A stretch of 27,642 nucleotides of DNA from Candidatus Altiarchaeota archaeon (GCA_016931955.1 JAFGDV010000013.1:1-27642), one strand, 5' to 3'; positions 23,046 through 27,642 are shown, numbered from the stretch's first letter. A program made the numbers and translations. The notes: generated by a model not told the origin, from the letters alone.

Positions 23046-23573
23046 TTACTTACAGAATGCGAAGGCCCAGTCTCCGCAGCCTTGTTTGCCGCTTGGGACT
23101 GATGGGTTGCATTCTACGGGCTGACACCACCCCTGTGAGCCAATCATACAGCCTTCGCTGCAGTTTCCGTCCGCGCAGGGCGGCTGAAGCTCTCCCCCAC
23201 AGGGCTGACATAATCCCAGGGTTCCTACCACGTAGCCTTCCATGCAGCCGAAATCACAAGAAACCTGAAAGACGCCTCCACAGAGGGTTGTAGTGGTTGA
23301 GGTGGTTGTGGTCGTCGTAGTTGTAGTGGTCGTCGTGGTTGTAGTGGTCGTTGTCGTAGTCGAAGTGGTCGTAGTCGAAGTGGTTGTCGTAGTTGTGGTC
23401 GTAGTGGTCACGAATACTACAATGGATACTGCACTTATCGTCAGCATACCCAGTAACACTATTGTTATGAAAATGACAACTGTCGTTGACGTGTTCTTTC
23501 CCTTCTCTGGTTCCTCTTCTTCGTCGAAGAGCGTGCTCCTCTTCTCCCTAAAATTAAAGGACTGCAGACCCAT
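23046..23573 (-). CDS. Membrane-anchored surface protein with poly-Thr stalk and Cys-rich head
   Basis: Single TM, 41-residue Thr/Ser run, two CGGxxQxxC repeats; ATG 23573 preferred. Confidence 0.78.
   Translation of the reverse strand: MGLQSFNFREKRSTLFDEEEEPEKGKNTSTTVVIFITIVLLGMLTISAVSIVVFVTTTTTTTTTTSTTTTSTTTTTTTTTTTTTTTTTTTTSTTTTLCGGVFQVSCDFGCMEGYVVGTLGLCQPCGGELQPPCADGNCSEGCMIGSQGWCQPVECNPSVPSGKQGCGDWAFAFCK
23286..23408 (-). repeat. Poly-Thr codon repeat (ACN)n
   Basis: 41 Thr/Ser codons with mixed third positions; internal 15-bp tandem duplication at 23353-23382. Confidence 0.9.
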
Positions 23574-23740
23574 ATTATGTTTAAGTATGGTTTTCCACGG
23601 ATAAAAACAGCCCCAATAAGCCGCCTTAGATCCCATCAAGACTTGTTTTGTGTTTTTGGAGGGCATGAATCCTTAGAAAAGTTCAGAAAATATGCTATTT
23701 ATTGGATTGTTTCCATAGTTTAACAGTAGGAGGTGCTTTC

Positions 23741-24747: not shown

Positions 24748-25758
24748 GTGCGAGGTTTTGTGTTTTTGTTTGTTGTTTTGTTTTTGTTTTCGTGTTGTGT
24801 TGAGGAGCGGGTGGATTCTCCGATCACTTGTTGTAGCGGTGGTGGATTTGAGGTTGTTTTGGGTTTTGATGAGCCAGTAACCGGTTCGGAATTGACGACG
24901 TATGAGGGCATATTAGGGGATCGGTTAGGTTATATTGGGTTTGAGAGATACTATCTGGTTTCTCAGGGAAACCGGAGTATTCTGGTTCAGGTCTGCAGTG
25001 TCTCATCTGAGGATTTAGACAGAGTTCTGAAGCCGGGTAGGTTTGAAGCCAGGATAGACGGAGAACTCGCGATACTGGGTTCTGAGGTAAGCGCCGACTT
25101 GGGTCCGCAGGGAAGCGCTATTAGCGGCAGTGGATCTTATTATAGTTGGTACGTCTCCCTCAGATTAGATTATGACGGTGGTCAACGCTTCTGTGAGATT
25201 GGGGGGGATAAGAAGGGCAGGCCCATTGACATGTTCCTCGACCGTCCGGAGAACACGATACTTGTCGTGGATAAGGTCACATACACTATTCTCGGTGAAC
25301 TCACTGAAGATAAAGACGATCCATCCTATGATTCCTATGTCCAAATTGTTGAAAACCGTTCACTGATACCCCTTCTGGTGATAGAAAACAACACATTTGA
25401 CCTTGAGCGGCTTTCAGCATTAAAAGACTATAAGAAAGCGATCTTAGCCGGCGACGAAGAGCATATACCTGAGGCTGTCAGAGAGAAACTTGAGGGACAC
25501 GGCTTTACTACTGTGAGGAAGCCTCGAGAAGGTAAAGACTATGAGGAATGGGTTCTGGATTTGGTGGGTCTAAGGTCGTCTCCACGGCTTAGATGTGATC
25601 CCTGCACTCAATGCAAGTATGCTGCTCAGATCGCCGGCAGCGCCTTTACCTTAGAAGGAGCTAAACAGGATAGGGATGAGATCATGTCTCTTTTGGGGTT
25701 CGGTATGTTGCCTGCCAACTTGGGGATAGAATCTAAGACAACGATTCCGGCATGCTAG
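24748..25758 (+). CDS. Putative lipoprotein consisting of an archaeal SecD extracytoplasmic (P1)-like domain without the TM bundle
   Basis: Signal ending FLFSCC; ILGDRLG..G..GNRSILVQV, KPGRFEARI, WYVSLRL...GGQRF, PIDMFLD, AQIAG, LGFGMLPANL; RBS gaggtg before GTG 24748. Confidence 0.72.
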   Translation: MRGFVFLFVVLFLFSCCVEERVDSPITCCSGGGFEVVLGFDEPVTGSELTTYEGILGDRLGYIGFERYYLVSQGNRSILVQVCSVSSEDLDRVLKPGRFEARIDGELAILGSEVSADLGPQGSAISGSGSYYSWYVSLRLDYDGGQRFCEIGGDKKGRPIDMFLDRPENTILVVDKVTYTILGELTEDKDDPSYDSYVQIVENRSLIPLLVIENNTFDLERLSALKDYKKAILAGDEEHIPEAVREKLEGHGFTTVRKPREGKDYEEWVLDLVGLRSSPRLRCDPCTQCKYAAQIAGSAFTLEGAKQDRDEIMSLLGFGMLPANLGIESKTTIPAC

Positions 25759-25762
25759 GATG

Positions 25763-25774
25763 TAGTGCCTAACT
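25763..25774 (+). repeat. 12-bp direct repeat, left copy
   Basis: tagtgcctaact, identical to 26348-26359; brackets the TA pair. Confidence 0.7.
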
Positions 25775-25853
25775 GAGATGCCGCCATATTGAGGAAGGCG
25801 TAGTTGATAATATTTATGTCTTAAACTGATAATTATCTATTGAGGGAGAAAAA

Positions 25854-26015
25854 ATGGCTGAGATGATACATATCTCAAAGAAGGAATATGAGGAGATGAA
25901 GGCTACAATAGAGACCCTCCAAGATCAGGAGGTTTTGAAGCAGATTGCTATGAGTGAAAAAGAGATCCTTGAAGGGAAAACCCACAGATGGAAGGATGTG
26001 AGGGATAAAATCTAG
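25854..26015 (+). CDS. 53-aa antitoxin-like protein (RelB/Phd C-terminal type), absent from the ORF track
   Basis: MAEMIHISKKEYEEMKATIETLQDQEVLKQIAMSEKEILEGKTHRWKDVRDKI*; purine-rich RBS upstream. Confidence 0.78.
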   Translation: MAEMIHISKKEYEEMKATIETLQDQEVLKQIAMSEKEILEGKTHRWKDVRDKI

Positions 26016-26293
26016 TATTCCTTTTCGGCTTCTTTCTTGCTTTTCAGGGCTACCAGATGCAGCAGATTTTTTGCTTTGTCTTCTAAGAACCACAGCCTCC
26101 AACTGCCAATCCTCTGCTGGAGGAATGGGTGGAGTCTTCCCTTGAGTCGTTTTTCTATCACCTTCGGGGGTTCGATGTCGAGCTCTGATATCTTGTATTC
26201 TATGTCGCCCAGTTTTTTCTTGATTCTTTCTCTGTCCGTTCCGCTCAGAGTCAATAATTTCTTTAGGATATGGTCTGGTATCTCAAGTTCCAT
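26012..26293 (-). CDS. RelE/ParE-like toxin
   Basis: 93 aa, basic; KKLLTL...RERIKKKL, KRLKG, LQQRIGSWRL resembling YRLRIGDYRV. Confidence 0.72.
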   Translation of the reverse strand: MELEIPDHILKKLLTLSGTDRERIKKKLGDIEYKISELDIEPPKVIEKRLKGRLHPFLQQRIGSWRLWFLEDKAKNLLHLVALKSKKEAEKEY

Positions 26294-26347
26294 TGTTAAT
26301 ACTATAGCATACGCTCATAAAATTCTGGATGGATTTTTGCGAGGCCA

Positions 26348-26359
26348 TAGTGCCTAACT
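26348..26359 (+). repeat. 12-bp direct repeat, right copy
   Basis: tagtgcctaact, identical to 25763-25774. Confidence 0.7.
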
Positions 26360-26376
26360 TTTTAACTGCGGAACCT

Positions 26377-26709
26377 TCAGGCAGGAACGGTCTTATCCTG
26401 CTTTTCCAGCTCTTTCTTGATGAAGTAGTCGGAGATCCTGACGTCAACCTTTACCAATTCCTGGACAAGAGGGTTTTTCTCGTCAAGGCGGTATAGTCTG
26501 GCGTTGGCTATCGTCCGGGTCTGCTCTACAATACCTGTTTCCAAGAGCCCTGGAAATATCCTATGCAGGGTGGACCATGAAACTCCTGAGTTCTTGGAGA
26601 TGTCTGATAGTGTGTAGTCATACAAGCCTCTTTCAGCTAACAGAAAGTCTATGACTTTGATCGTCGGCGAGTCCCCGAAGACCCTCTTGAAAGCGGATTT
26701 TTCCTCCAT
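26377..26709 (-). CDS. Winged-HTH DNA-binding protein
   Basis: FGDSPTIKVIDFLL, DYTLSDISKNSGVSWSTL, TRTIANARLYRL. Confidence 0.85.
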   Translation of the reverse strand: MEEKSAFKRVFGDSPTIKVIDFLLAERGLYDYTLSDISKNSGVSWSTLHRIFPGLLETGIVEQTRTIANARLYRLDEKNPLVQELVKVDVRISDYFIKKELEKQDKTVPA

Positions 26710-26809
26710 CGTTAATTATTATTATTCATAGTATTTAAATTTAATTATTTGAATTAAATTTTTGGTATACTACACATATGGATATAAACGCCCGACTCTA
26801 TATATTTTT

Positions 26810-27046
26810 ATGGATAAGCTTAAAGTTCACATACTCAGAAGGCTGCACAGGCACACCTACGTCGGCAGACGGCATATGGCAATAACGGACCTGATGTAGG
26901 GTTTGCCCAGAGAGGAAAGAGTTCTCAGAGATATAAAGCAGGTAGCCAAGGAACTGATAAATGAGGGCTATCTACTACCCCAACACACCGACAGAGTATC
27001 CATCAACCCAAGAATGCTCAAGGAGATCAGAGAAATCGCCAGTTAA
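26810..27046 (+). pseudogene. 78-codon small basic archaeal protein with in-frame amber at codon 30
   Basis: MDKLKVHILRRLHRHTYVGRRHMAITDLM*GLPREE...KELINEGYLLP...VSINPRMLKEIREIAS*; protein-like on both sides of TAG 26897-26899. Confidence 0.72.
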
Positions 27047-27048
27047 AG

Positions 27049-27169
27049 TATAGCCCCGCCAGGATCGAAATAAGGGCATCTTATACCCTTATCAACCCTA
27101 AGAATTCGCCACAGGCGAATTCCTTTTTCTTTTGGGATGATAGACCTTTTCTTTCGCAAAGAAAAGGGC
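27049..27169. repeat. tRNA-linked structured repeat, unit A (behind tRNA-Gln)
   Basis: 17-bp duplication tatagccccgccaggat (27049 and 27170), motif cccttatcaaccc, three hairpins, gggatgatag. Confidence 0.88.
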
Positions 27170-27171
27170 TA

Positions 27172-27244
27172 TAGCCCCGCCAGGATTCGAACCTGGGTCT
27201 CCGGGTCCAAAGCCCGACAGGATTGGCCACTACCCTACGGGGCT
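27172..27244 (-). tRNA. tRNA-Gln (TTG)
   Basis: AGCCCCG/CGGGGCT acceptor stem, anticodon arm TCGGG-CTTTGGA-CCCGG, GTTCGAATCC T-loop; CCA not encoded. Confidence 0.97.
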
Positions 27245-27270
27245 ACGTAGAAGGGATAAATTCCTCTTGA

Positions 27271-27341
27271 GTCGAATTTGCCATAAGGTGAATTCCTTTT
27301 TCTTTCGCCAGCGTTTCTTTTTCCTAAAAAGAAAGGCTGAA
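27271..27341. repeat. tRNA-linked structured repeat, partial unit B
   Basis: Hairpins gaatttgcc-ataa-ggtgaattc and tttcttttt-cct-aaaaagaaa, homologous to units A and C. Confidence 0.8.
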
Positions 27342-27482
27342 GGCTATTTATGCGCCCGCCAGGATGAACATAAGGGCGCCTCCCCCGCCCTTATCAACCC
27401 ATCCGAGCCGTCGAATCCGCCTTGTGGCGGATTCTTTTTTTTTCTTTGGGATGATAGCACTTTCTTTTTCTTAAAAAGAAAG
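27342..27482. repeat. tRNA-linked structured repeat, unit C (behind tRNA-Gly)
   Basis: 19-bp duplication ggctatttatgcgcccgcc (27342 and 27483); same motifs and hairpins as unit A. Confidence 0.88.
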
Positions 27483-27491
27483 GGCTATTTA

Positions 27492-27564
27492 TGCGCCCGC
27501 CGGGATTTGAACCCGGGTAATCAGCTTGGAAGGCTGAGGTCCTACCAGACTAGACTACGGACGC
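27492..27564 (-). tRNA. tRNA-Gly (TCC)
   Basis: GCGTCCG/CGGGCGC acceptor stem, anticodon arm TCAGC-CTTCCAA-GCTGA, GTTCAAATCC T-loop; CCA not encoded. Confidence 0.97.
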
Positions 27565-27601
27565 ATAAGTGTGAGAACCTACGATTCTCCCTTATCAACC
27601 C
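27565..27601. repeat. tRNA-linked structured repeat, partial unit D
   Basis: ataag...gagaa-loop-ttctc-ccttat hairpin and exact cccttatcaaccc at 27589-27601. Confidence 0.65.
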
Positions 27602-27642
27602 ACCTCTCCCTTAAGATGAGCATCATCTAGGGTTTTGATGAA

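What the first reader, a model, noticed from the sequence alone, without database searches (positions are those of the whole stretch)
27049..27501. Each tRNA is followed by a duplicate of its own 3' end, with the same element in between
Seen: the tRNA-Gln 3' end is repeated 121 bp away (17 bp) and the tRNA-Gly 3' end plus trailer is repeated 141 bp away (19 bp). Both duplicates continue into a shortened T-loop (minus strand TTCGAT versus TTCGAAT; TTCAT versus TTCAAAT). Established: tRNA 3'-end duplication is the footprint of tyrosine-integrase islands, and E. coli has tRNA-linked repeats such as the tyrT repeats. Inference: a minimal, gene-less element that integrates into different tRNAs using an enzyme supplied in trans; no integrase is present in this window.
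Basis: partly seen in the sequence, partly recalled or inferred. Interest (0 to 1): 0.78.

Follow-up and report, generated by a model that had tools for sequence, protein, structure and literature searches.

The report
Gene-less hairpin element duplicating tRNA ends
Each of the two tRNA genes is followed by a small, gene-less, hairpin-built insertion and then by a copy of the tRNA's own tail, and the same kind of insertion, marked by one conserved hairpin, sits behind many tRNA and protein genes in this archaeon and in distant archaea, always with a copy of the neighbouring gene end.

Summary
The last 17 nt of tRNA-Gln and 19 nt of tRNA-Gly plus trailer recur 121 and 141 nt away, with two homologous hairpin cassettes (84% alike) in between. 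It is not a local oddity. In this genome 8 of 22 tRNAs carry a 3'-end copy and 6 of 22 a 5'-end copy. Related genomes have the same tRNA-Gly/tRNA-Gln pair with only 3-33 nt between them, so empty sites exist.

Each cassette ends in a conserved hairpin, "C" (GGGTTGATAAGGG-stem/loop-CCCTTAT). In 96 C copies across the order, 56 are followed at once by a copy of 14 to at least 70 nt that lie just upstream. These are tRNA ends, but also the last codons and stop of protein genes. The copied stretch tends to begin at a GTTC (T-loop) or GTTGAnAAGG-like site. The same architecture occurs in records titled Methanosarcinales, Woesearchaeota, Nanoarchaeota and others.

My reading is a non-autonomous, hairpin-ended mobile element with long, variable target duplications that keep the neighbouring gene whole. 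It is not a tyrosine-integrase att footprint. No matching enzyme was found, so the mechanism is inferred. I found no description in Rfam or in the papers I searched.

The parts
27492..27564 (-). tRNA-Gly(tcc), intact
   Evidence: ARAGORN; Rfam tRNA 67.5 bits
27565..27601 (-). Long form of hairpin C (GGGTTGATAAGGG...CACTTAT). Its last base abuts position +1 of tRNA-Gly.
   Evidence: The same arrangement is seen at tRNA-Gly of G024. Two further copies of the tRNA's first 16 nt lie upstream, on contig C27, which overlaps this contig's end.
27454..27488 (-). Module A of the Gly element: a T-rich 16-bp hairpin directly after the tRNA
   Evidence: Inverted repeat I2; fold
27413..27434 (-). Module B of the Gly element: GAATCCGCC...GGCGGATTC hairpin
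   Evidence: family D3
27370..27400 (-). Hairpin C of the Gly element, at the element's distal end
   Evidence: Family D5; fold
27342..27369 (-). Copy of the tRNA-Gly 3' end plus 8 nt of trailer: 19 nt exact, then a shortened T-loop
   Evidence: D2; score 13.5 against control 7
27275..27339 (-). Second A-like hairpin (27309-27339) and B-like hairpin (27275-27296) between the Gly copy and tRNA-Gln
   Evidence: Inverted repeat I4 and family D3
27172..27244 (-). tRNA-Gln(ttg), intact
   Evidence: ARAGORN; Rfam tRNA 61.8 bits
27140..27172 (-). Module A of the Gln element: T-rich hairpin
   Evidence: Inverted repeat I3; fold
27102..27123 (-). Module B of the Gln element: GGAATTCGCC...GGCGAATTC hairpin
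27070..27098 (-). Hairpin C of the Gln element
   Evidence: Family D5; fold
27049..27069 (-). Copy of the tRNA-Gln 3' end: 17 nt exact, then TCGAA with one base missing. It lies 3 nt from the stop codon of a converging small ORF.
   Evidence: D1, D2; score 17 against control 7

Best explanation
The two repeats are target duplications made when two copies of one gene-less mobile cassette, about 100-120 nt long, were inserted at the T-loops of tRNA-Gln and tRNA-Gly.

The cassette is a mosaic of hairpin modules. A is a T-rich hairpin that probably also terminates transcription, B is a GAATTC-type hairpin, and C is the last module. C reads GGGTTGATAAGGG, then a variable stem and loop, then CCCTTAT. 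It defines a family spread through this order and found in several other archaeal phyla.

Shown: C sits at one end of the insert, and its last base is joined without microhomology to a second copy of the 14 to at least 70 nt that lie upstream of the insert. That copied stretch tends to begin at GTTC or TTCG of a T-loop, or at a GTTGAnAAGG-like site that resembles C's own 5' arm. The far boundary of the copy varies. The upstream gene, whether tRNA or protein gene, stays whole.

Inferred: an enzyme not yet identified nicks 5' of such a site and joins the 3' end of the incoming hairpin strand to it. The other junction forms at a variable distance after some re-copying of the target, in a target-primed, copy-and-paste manner. 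tRNA genes are hit so often because every one of them carries GTTCRAAT.
For: Genome-wide in G000:
- A 3'-end copy lies within 420 nt in 8 of 22 tRNAs (reversed control at most 8, against scores of 13.5-19). A 5'-end copy lies upstream of 6 of 22.
- There are 17 copies of the 13-mer in G000. It occurs in 25 of 41 genomes sampled in the order, against 2 hits for the reversed pattern, and in 26 of 61 genomes of the phylum, with 0 to 28 copies per genome.

Empty sites:
- The tRNA-Gly to tRNA-Gln spacer is 3-33 nt, without modules or copies, in G001 (same genus), G005, G008, G009 and G025. It is 245 nt in G000.
- G012 carries a 63-nt hairpin insert plus an exact 22-nt copy of the tRNA-Gly tail that its congener G005 lacks.

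Census of C copies:
- Of 96 C copies with usable flanks, 56 are followed within 8 nt (41 at 0) by a copy of upstream sequence, and 11 more further on. None of the 96 reversed controls reached the threshold.
- Copy length is 14-70 nt, median 33, where 70 is the limit of the comparison.
- Protein-gene ends are duplicated in the same way: 27 of 34 non-tRNA cases have a co-directional ORF ending in the copy or in the insert.

Junction and target:
- In 36 primary junctions the shared suffix is 0 nt in 27, 1 in 6, 2 in 1 and 3 in 2, about what chance gives.
- The first 10 nt of 22 non-tRNA copies match GTTGATAAGG at 4.82 of 10 positions. The null is 2.66 +/- 0.30, 0 of 20000 permutations reach the observed value, and the signal appears at offset 0 only.

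Hairpin and wider spread:
- The two free pairs of the stem are paired in 18 of 18 distinct 27-mers, with 3 and 4 pair types.
- The same tRNA-spacer-C-copy layout occurs in loci titled Methanosarcinales, Woesearchaeota, Nanoarchaeota, Nanobdellota, Micrarchaeota and Pacearchaeota.
Against: - No enzyme was found. G000 (92% complete) gave no match to TnpB, Y1 transposase, reverse transcriptase or Cas1.
- Reverse transcriptase was found in 6 of 41 relatives, but not in the C-rich genomes.
- The Y1 transposases of G010 and G024 have no C motif beside them.
- 29 of 96 C copies show no copy after them.
- Some arrays, such as tRNA-Pro on C9, L008 and L155, have one copy fewer than C hairpins. That also fits tandem amplification of a tRNA-tail/spacer/C unit.
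- The 5'-end copies in G000 start exactly at tRNA +1 and are not preceded by C, which the proposed nick site does not explain.
- No excised form, circle or fresh insertion was seen. Only assembled contigs could be laid, not reads.
- Target duplications this long and variable are not known for any characterised prokaryotic transposase (this last point is recalled, not from a call).
- Related genomes are not independent, so the census counts overstate the number of events.
Confidence: 0.55

Rival explanations
1. Local tandem duplication without transposition. The hairpin modules are ordinary flanks of tRNA and other genes (terminators, processing signals). Replication slippage or unequal exchange between the T-loop GTTCGAAT and the T-loop-like bases after C (GTGTCGAAT, GTGGGAAT) duplicates the unit made of tRNA tail, spacer and C.
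For: Arrays of repeated units exist with one copy fewer than C hairpins: tRNA-Pro on C9 and L008, L007, L155, L153, L060 and L039. In several lineages C is followed by GTG(T/G)(C/G)GAAT, which resembles a T-loop.
Against: tRNA-Gln and tRNA-Gly in the window each have one C and one copy, and the Gln copy abuts a neighbouring ORF's stop. Two inserts at one site can carry different C forms, as in L152. There is no microhomology at 27 of 36 junctions. Relatives have empty sites with no module at all. The same conserved hairpin sits behind unrelated genes in distant phyla.
Confidence: 0.15
2. Remnants of integrase-mediated integration. Plasmids or viruses integrated at tRNA 3' ends by a tyrosine recombinase. 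Internal deletion then left attL, a short piece of the element, and attR.
For: The genome holds one such island. tRNA-Cys (C38:51049-51124) is followed by a 403-aa Phage_integrase ORF (E 1.5e-11), and a 15-nt copy of the tRNA tail lies 9.6 kb away. That copy also starts in the T-loop. Partial tRNA genes left by integrated elements are documented in Thermococcaceae (PMC9897764, abstract read).
Against: There is no integrase fragment or other coding remnant in the inserts. The far end of the tRNA-Cys island has no C hairpin. Copies of tRNA 5' ends and of protein-gene ends, with lengths of 14 to at least 70 nt, do not fit an att core. One cassette family would need a different attP for every tRNA. 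In the tRNA-Glu case the T-loop part of the copy (TCGAAT) differs from the tRNA's own (TTCAAAT).
Confidence: 0.12
3. A functional RNA or DNA signal rather than a parasite. C plus the copied tail forms a T-arm-like extended hairpin in the pre-tRNA trailer or in the 3' UTR. It could act as a processing or decoy site for a tRNA-binding enzyme, or as a protein-binding DNA site, and would be kept by selection.
For: The motif is conserved across phyla and the stem covaries. The predicted folds are far more stable than shuffles (z -4.4 and -5.0), and an outer helix pairs GGGUUGA with the T-loop and T-stem part of the copy. In the order, C is co-directional with the upstream gene.
Against: Distribution is patchy: 0 to 28 copies per genome, none found in 35 of 61 genomes of the phylum, and empty orthologous sites. 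The copies decay, with shortened T-loops in the window. C also lies antisense to tRNAs in other phyla. No RNA run holding the stretch was listed, so expression is untested.
Confidence: 0.1
4. Assembly artefact of a metagenome-assembled genome at a repeat-rich contig end.
For: The region lies in the last 600 nt of the contig, and many contigs of this genome break inside the same modules.
Against: Independent Logan contigs cover both junction sets without a difference. The same architecture recurs in dozens of other assemblies.
Confidence: 0.02

Closest known systems
tRNA-targeting integrative elements with tyrosine integrases (attL/attR repeats of the tRNA 3' end)
   Same: An intact tRNA is followed by foreign DNA and then by a direct copy of the tRNA's 3' part, starting near the T-loop. 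One true example sits in this genome at tRNA-Cys.
   Different: There is no integrase and no coding DNA. One cassette family serves many different tRNAs. It also duplicates tRNA 5' ends and protein-gene ends, and the copy length varies from 14 to at least 70 nt.
IS91-family rolling-circle (HUH) insertion sequences
   Same: Both have a subterminal palindrome at the element's end. That end abuts a short target motif, 5'-GTTC or 5'-CTTG in IS91 relatives (PMC13181058, passages read). Here it is GTTC of the T-loop or nTTGA. The opposite end is variable, recalling one-ended transposition.
   Different: IS91 elements make no target duplication and encode a Y2 transposase. Here the copies are long, the element is 40-250 nt, and no such gene was found. 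That search was uninformative, because its controls were silent.
REP/BIME elements and MITEs
   Same: Short, gene-less, multi-copy intergenic hairpin repeats that combine into mosaics and depend on an enzyme encoded elsewhere.
   Different: There are no terminal inverted repeats and no short fixed target duplication. No RAYT-type gene lies beside C. The long copy of the neighbouring gene end has no counterpart in REPs. MITE features are as summarised in PMC11602168 (passages read).
Casposons and CRISPR spacer integration (Cas1)
   Same: Insertion at tRNA 3' ends with duplication of the tRNA tail (casposons). Insertion of a short DNA with duplication of a flanking unit of about 30 nt (CRISPR repeat). 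Both points are recalled, not tested here.
   Different: No Cas1 was found in G000. There are no terminal inverted repeats, and the duplication length is not fixed.
SINE/LINE-type target-primed insertion
   Same: One precise, structured end of the element is joined at a site-specific nick. The other end is variable, and the target duplications vary in length.
   Different: No reverse transcriptase was found in the C-rich genomes. No A-tail is present. This mode is unknown in archaea (recalled).
Archaeal non-canonical tRNA introns and their proposed transposition
   Same: Module sequences lie inside tRNA introns of G000: the tRNA-Leu(taa) intron matches the window's cassette at 91%. In 3 of 12 loci tested, cutting out C plus 4-21 nt restores a tRNA-Val across the T-loop.
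   Different: In the window the tRNAs are not interrupted, because the cassette lies behind them. A bulge-helix-bulge motif was not tested.

Membership tests
Integrase-type tRNA island (tyrosine recombinase) | Integrase gene, or its fragments, inside the inserted DNA | tested here: not met
   There is no ORF in the 100-120-nt inserts. The only PF00589 match in G000 is at C38, beside tRNA-Cys.
Integrase-type tRNA island (tyrosine recombinase) | Direct repeat equal to the attB core, at one specific tRNA | tested here: not met
   Copies are found at 8 of 22 tRNAs on the 3' side and 6 of 22 on the 5' side, and at protein-gene ends. Lengths are 14 to at least 70 nt.
MITE | Terminal inverted repeats | tested here: not met
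   The left ends (module A or other sequence) and the right end (C) are not inverted copies of each other.
MITE | Short target duplication of fixed length | tested here: not met
   Copy length is 14-70 nt, median 33.
MITE | Multi-copy, non-coding, variably present among relatives | tested here: met
IS91 / HUH rolling-circle elements | Element end with a subterminal palindrome next to a GTTC/CTTG-type target tetranucleotide | tested here: met
   C abuts GTTC or TTCG of T-loops, or nTTGA sites. The IS91 features are taken from PMC13181058.
IS91 / HUH rolling-circle elements | No target duplication | tested here: not met
   56 of 96 copies carry long duplications.
IS91 / HUH rolling-circle elements | Y2 or Y1 HUH transposase in the genome or next to a master copy | tested here: inconclusive
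   PF04986 and PF01446 gave no match, but the control genomes were silent too. PF01797 is absent from G000. It is present in G010 and G024 without C nearby.
Casposon | Cas1-family integrase | tested here: not met
   PF01867 has no match in G000. Relatives were not searched for it.
Retroposon (target-primed reverse transcription) | Reverse transcriptase available in the host | tested here: not met
   PF00078 is absent from G000, G010, G024, G011, G034 and G002. It is present in 6 of 41 genomes, which hold 0 to 4 copies of the C 13-mer (G022 and G023 none, G030 one, G014 two, G017 three, G018 four). MAG incompleteness applies.
Rfam RNA families | Match to a curated covariance model | tested here: not met
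   Only the tRNAs reach a gathering score in window 25000-27642 and in 15 loci from other archaea and bacteria.
Archaeal tRNA intron (bulge-helix-bulge) | Lies inside a tRNA gene, and its removal restores the tRNA | tested here: not met
   Not so in the window, where both tRNAs are uninterrupted. It is met for C in L017, L024 and L107, 3 of 12 loci tested. The BHB fold was not tested.

The most novel reading that the evidence does not exclude
A previously undescribed, archaea-wide class of gene-less mobile DNA. Its only constant part is a terminal hairpin with a 13-nt arm. It is pasted 5' of GTTC/GTTGA-like sites by an unknown, possibly host-encoded nicking-joining enzyme, while part of the target is copied again. 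The neighbouring gene end is thereby always preserved. Such an element could settle at the very ends of tRNA and protein genes and inside compact gene junctions. When it lands in the other orientation in a T-loop, it could become a non-canonical tRNA intron. It would then be a source of tRNA fragments, disrupted tRNA genes and T-loop introns.
Probability: 0.3. Interest if true: 0.9.

Novelty: new variant of a known kind. Interest (0 to 1): 0.7.

Why it matters
Three things would follow if the reading holds.

1. A transposition mode with long, variable, gene-preserving target duplications and no recognisable transposase would be new for prokaryotes. It would also point to an enzyme still to be found.

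2. It offers a concrete, testable route for how foreign sequence gets into archaeal tRNA genes. A 2026 preprint on Asgard tRNA introns states that how introns arrive remains open (10.64898/2026.10.13.758758, abstract and passages read). Here the same modules lie behind tRNAs, in front of them, inside their introns, and, in three loci of other archaea, in the T-loop itself.

3. There is a practical side. These cassettes break assemblies at tRNA loci, since many contigs of this genome end in them. They also create partial tRNA genes that annotation tools may miscall, a problem raised for Thermococcaceae in PMC9897764 (abstract read).

Tried and rejected
- **Rfam:** nothing but tRNA, in the window and in 15 loci.
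- **Literature:** no relevant paper came from searches by motif (GGTTGATAAGGG, its complement and its RNA form; 7 unrelated papers). The same holds for searches by MITE/T-loop/archaea terms, partial tRNA/integrase terms, Altiarchaeota terms and intron transposition terms. So the element is not in print in those searches only. Supplementary MITE sequence files of PMC11602168 were not opened and could hold it. bioRxiv supplements are closed.
- **XerA/dif mimicry:** the dif sequence is in a figure that I could not read. C has a variable spacer of 9-60 nt, unlike the 6-bp spacer described there. Dropped.
- **C as a promoter:** its distance to tRNA +1 is fixed at 0 while its length varies from 24 to more than 80 nt, and it is not A+T-rich. 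Dropped.
- **Split-tRNA 3' halves:** the intact tRNA stands beside each fragment, and the fragments are too short. Dropped.
- **TnpB/omega-RNA guide idea:** no TnpB found. Dropped.
- **Clostridial hits of the pattern:** a TIR-bounded MITE of about 240 bp, probably unrelated. A search of it against plasmids found nothing.
- **Viral contigs:** 39 stretches, nearly all non-hairpin matches in coding DNA, and none in an archaeal-like layout.
- **Chance level of the collection scan:** I estimate roughly 470 chance matches in 596 Gb for the 18-base pattern (my arithmetic). Single hits therefore carry no weight, and only context was used.
- **Long-range search in G000** for a copy of the post-C sequence up to 15 kb upstream, looking for an autonomous copy: none.
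- **Sequencing runs:** no RNA holder was listed, and only contigs could be laid. A contig joint 27244->27492 (27 letters on its shorter side) and a joint in another run with 85 letters in between look like relatives with short spacers. They are not excision products.

Full report
**1. What is there**

The window is a whole contig (C24) of a 1.55-Mb, 46-contig archaeal genome with 46.8% G+C. Its last 600 nt hold tRNA-Gly(tcc) and tRNA-Gln(ttg) on the minus strand.

Read in the tRNA direction, each tRNA is followed by four parts:
- Module A, a T-rich hairpin.
- Module B, a GAATTC-type hairpin, after an A-rich linker.
- Hairpin C: GGGTTGATAAGGG, a variable stem and loop, then CCCTTAT.
- Directly after C, a copy of the tRNA's own tail.

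The copies are 17 nt exact for Gln and 19 nt exact for Gly (including 8 nt of trailer). Both run on into a T-loop that has lost one or two bases. Shuffles of the region never give a direct repeat longer than 11 nt, against 19 observed. The two cassettes are 84% alike. Each folds far better than shuffled sequence, with z of -4.4 and -5.0. Contigs assembled independently from the one run that holds the stretch cover both sets of junctions without a difference.

**2. It is a genome-wide and order-wide pattern**

I counted 22 tRNAs in the genome: 21 from ARAGORN with introns allowed, plus one intron-bearing tRNA-Leu found by eye.
- Eight have a copy of their 3' end within 420 nt downstream. These are Pro (twice, in tandem), Val-tac, Met, Arg-tcg, Gln, Gly-tcc, Phe-gaa and Leu.
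- A ninth, Glu, is cut by a contig end.
- Six have a copy of their first 13-22 nt upstream: Ile, Ser, Phe-aaa (possibly a spurious call), Phe-gaa, Arg-gcg and Glu.
- tRNA-Gly(tcc) has two further copies of its first 16 nt on contig C27, whose start overlaps the end of this contig.

Fourteen tRNAs showed no 3' copy. For four of them (Arg-tct, Arg-gcg, Glu and Ser-gga) less than 200 nt of downstream sequence is available.

The C 13-mer occurs 17 times in this genome. It is found in 25 of 41 sampled genomes of the order, with 0-28 copies each, while the reversed pattern gave 2 hits in all. In the phylum it is found in 26 of 61 genomes, and in none of the 12 genomes of two other families.

**3. 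Empty sites exist**

The tRNA-Gly to tRNA-Gln pair is syntenic across the order. The spacer is 3-33 nt, with no module and no copy, in G001 (same genus), G005, G008, G009 and G025. It is 245 nt in G000.

G011 and G024 have their own hairpin inserts with copies of tRNA tails. G012 has a 63-nt two-hairpin insert plus an exact 22-nt copy of the tRNA-Gly tail, and its congener G005 lacks both. The spacer that follows is collinear in the two genomes.

**4. The copy belongs to the hairpin, not to tRNAs**

I collected every exact copy of the 13-mer in the order: G000 plus loci from 24 other genomes. That gave 102 copies, 96 of them with usable flanks.
- In 56, the sequence starting within 8 nt after CTTAT (at 0 in 41) repeats a stretch lying 0-281 nt upstream of C.
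- In 11 more, a repeat starts further on.
- In 29, none was found.
- The same test with the downstream sequence reversed never reached the threshold (0 of 96).
- The repeated stretch is 14-70 nt long, median 33, where 70 is the limit of the comparison.

Twenty of the 56 are tRNA 3' ends by ARAGORN. The others include the last codons and stop codon of protein genes. In one case the copy spans the junction between one gene's stop and the next gene's start, so that both genes stay whole. In 27 of 34 non-tRNA cases a co-directional ORF of at least 150 nt ends inside the copy or the insert.

The part of the insert left of C varies from 0 to more than 250 nt and is a mosaic of other hairpins. The smallest inserts are about 40 nt.

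**5. Junction and target**

At 36 primary right junctions, the bases before the upstream copy share no more with the end of C than chance predicts: 0 nt in 27, 1 in 6, 2 in 1 and 3 in 2. The join is therefore blunt and not microhomology-driven.

The copied stretch does not start at random.
- At tRNAs it starts at G53/T54 (GTTC or TTCG) in most cases.
- In 22 non-tRNA targets its first ten bases match GTTGATAAGG, the 5' arm of C, at 4.82 of 10 positions. The same genes give 2.66 +/- 0.30 elsewhere, 0 of 20000 permutations reach the observed value, and the signal is confined to that one offset.
- Where two inserts sit at one site (L152), both copies start at the same base but end at different ones, and the two C hairpins are of different forms.

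One boundary is thus site-specific and the other variable.

**6. Spread beyond the order**

Roughly 470 chance matches are expected for such a pattern in 596 Gb (my arithmetic), so only context counts.

Records titled Methanosarcinales, Woesearchaeota, Nanoarchaeota, Nanobdellota, Micrarchaeota, Pacearchaeota, Altiarchaeota and Aenigmatarchaeota show C as a true hairpin. Except in the Aenigmatarchaeota-titled loci, where C lies at or in the T-loop of a tRNA on the other strand, C is there followed by a copy of the upstream tRNA tail, of an antisense tRNA 5' part, or of other sequence.

Among 18 distinct 27-nt versions, the two stem pairs not fixed by the search are paired in 18 of 18, with three and four pair types.

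Loci carrying the same A, B and C modules as the window are titled Candidatus Altiarchaeales or Altiarchaeota (L043, L072, L085, L087). The lineage is therefore probably Altiarchaeota.

In three of twelve loci tested (L017, L024, L107), C lies antisense inside a tRNA-Val gene at the T-loop. Cutting out C plus 4-21 further bases restores a complete tRNA.

**7. Enzymes**

G000 is 92% complete. It gave no match to TnpB, Y1 transposase, reverse transcriptase or Cas1. Searches for Y2 transposase and Rep_1 were uninformative, because the control genomes were silent too.

Reverse transcriptase is present in 6 of 41 relatives, but not in the six genomes richest in C. G010 and G024 each have an IS200-type Y1 gene, but it is flanked by other hairpins and not by C.

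The one Phage_integrase gene of G000 lies directly after tRNA-Cys. A 15-nt copy of that tRNA's tail lies 9.6 kb further on, making a textbook island, and the sequence before that copy has no C. No copy of post-C sequence was found up to 15 kb upstream of any C in G000, so no long master copy was detected.

**8. Interpretation**

Several things are shown:
- A family of short, gene-less hairpin cassettes is variably present among relatives.
- Each has a conserved terminal hairpin.
- Next to that hairpin lies a second copy of the sequence upstream of the cassette.
- The copy starts at a preferred motif and has a variable end.

The mechanism is inferred. A nick forms 5' of a GTTC/GTTGA-type site. 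The 3' end of the incoming strand (...CTTAT) is joined to it. The target is partly copied again, and the second junction closes at a variable distance.

The closest working analogies are IS91-type HUH elements and target-primed insertion. IS91-type elements share the palindromic end next to a GTTC/CTTG target, but make no duplication. Target-primed insertion shares the one precise end and the variable duplications.

Membership in these classes, or in the integrase-island, MITE, REP or casposon classes, fails on at least one defining feature that I tested. For REP this is the RAYT-type Y1 gene: none was found in G000, and none lies beside C in G010 or G024.

Three things remain unexplained. The 5'-end copies in G000 begin exactly at tRNA +1 without C beside them. 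Arrays occur with one copy fewer than C hairpins. And 29 of 96 C copies have no detectable copy after them.

**9. Verdict**

The finding is real and is the local face of a widespread archaeal element. I could not find it in Rfam or in five literature searches.

Noticed in passing
G000 contig C38:51049-60750 (locus L134 covers the start): A classical integrated element of about 9.6 kb. tRNA-Cys is followed by a 403-aa tyrosine-recombinase ORF, and a 15-nt copy of the tRNA tail lies at C38:60736. Hairpin modules of the same kinds as in the window follow that copy.
   Followed up: partly
window 27565-27642 and G000 contig C27:1-250: The end of this contig and the start of C27 overlap (about 24 nt alike), so the two contigs probably join. 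Upstream of tRNA-Gly(tcc) lie two more copies of its first 16 nt, each followed by a short hairpin.
   Followed up: partly
G000 contig ends (C3, C10, C14, C27, C28, C30, C31, C44, C45, C46) and window 27642: Many contigs of this assembly start or stop inside the hairpin modules next to tRNAs. The cassettes seem to be a main cause of assembly breaks, and tRNAs may be under-recovered.
   Followed up: no
G000 C8:44124-44324, C31:19172-19318, C10:27976-28153: Long tRNA introns (Leu-taa 115 nt, Asn 72 nt, Trp 105 nt). The Leu intron contains B-like and A-like modules in the opposite orientation and matches the window's cassette at 91% identity. The Trp intron has a GATGATGA box, like the known C/D-box RNA in archaeal tRNA-Trp introns (recalled).
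   Followed up: partly
G000 C10:3173-3321: A tRNA-Leu with an unusually long interruption is missed by ARAGORN. It is followed by modules, hairpin C and a copy of its tail.
   Followed up: partly
window 26810-27046 (+): A 78-codon reading frame converging on the tRNA-Gln copy has an in-frame TAG at codon 30 (26897-26899). It may be two small ORFs, a pseudogene or read-through.
   Followed up: no
window 23046-23666 (-): An ORF with a run of about 60 threonines (a few serines among them) followed by a cysteine-rich tail. It looks like a secreted or surface protein.
   Followed up: no
G000 C22:7591-7780, C30:18450-18650, C14:24709-24850, C21:11800-11991: A second hairpin family, ending in ...AAAGAAAAAGGTGCTTCGCA, is also followed by a copy of the tRNA tail (Arg-tcg, Phe-gaa, Val-tac, Met). 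The copy starts a few bases later in the T-arm than after C.
   Followed up: partly
loci L020, L021, L029, L032, L034, L036, L053, L057, L094 and others: Records titled Clostridiales or Clostridia carry many copies of an element of about 240 bp. It is bounded by TGTC.AAAAA ... TTTTT..GACA, and its left part happens to contain the same GGGTTGATAAGGGG hairpin.
   Followed up: partly
L127, L060, L039: In records from other archaea, units of C plus 20-100 nt are repeated head to tail two or three times. In L127 the array ends directly at the 5' end of a tRNA-Cys.
   Followed up: no
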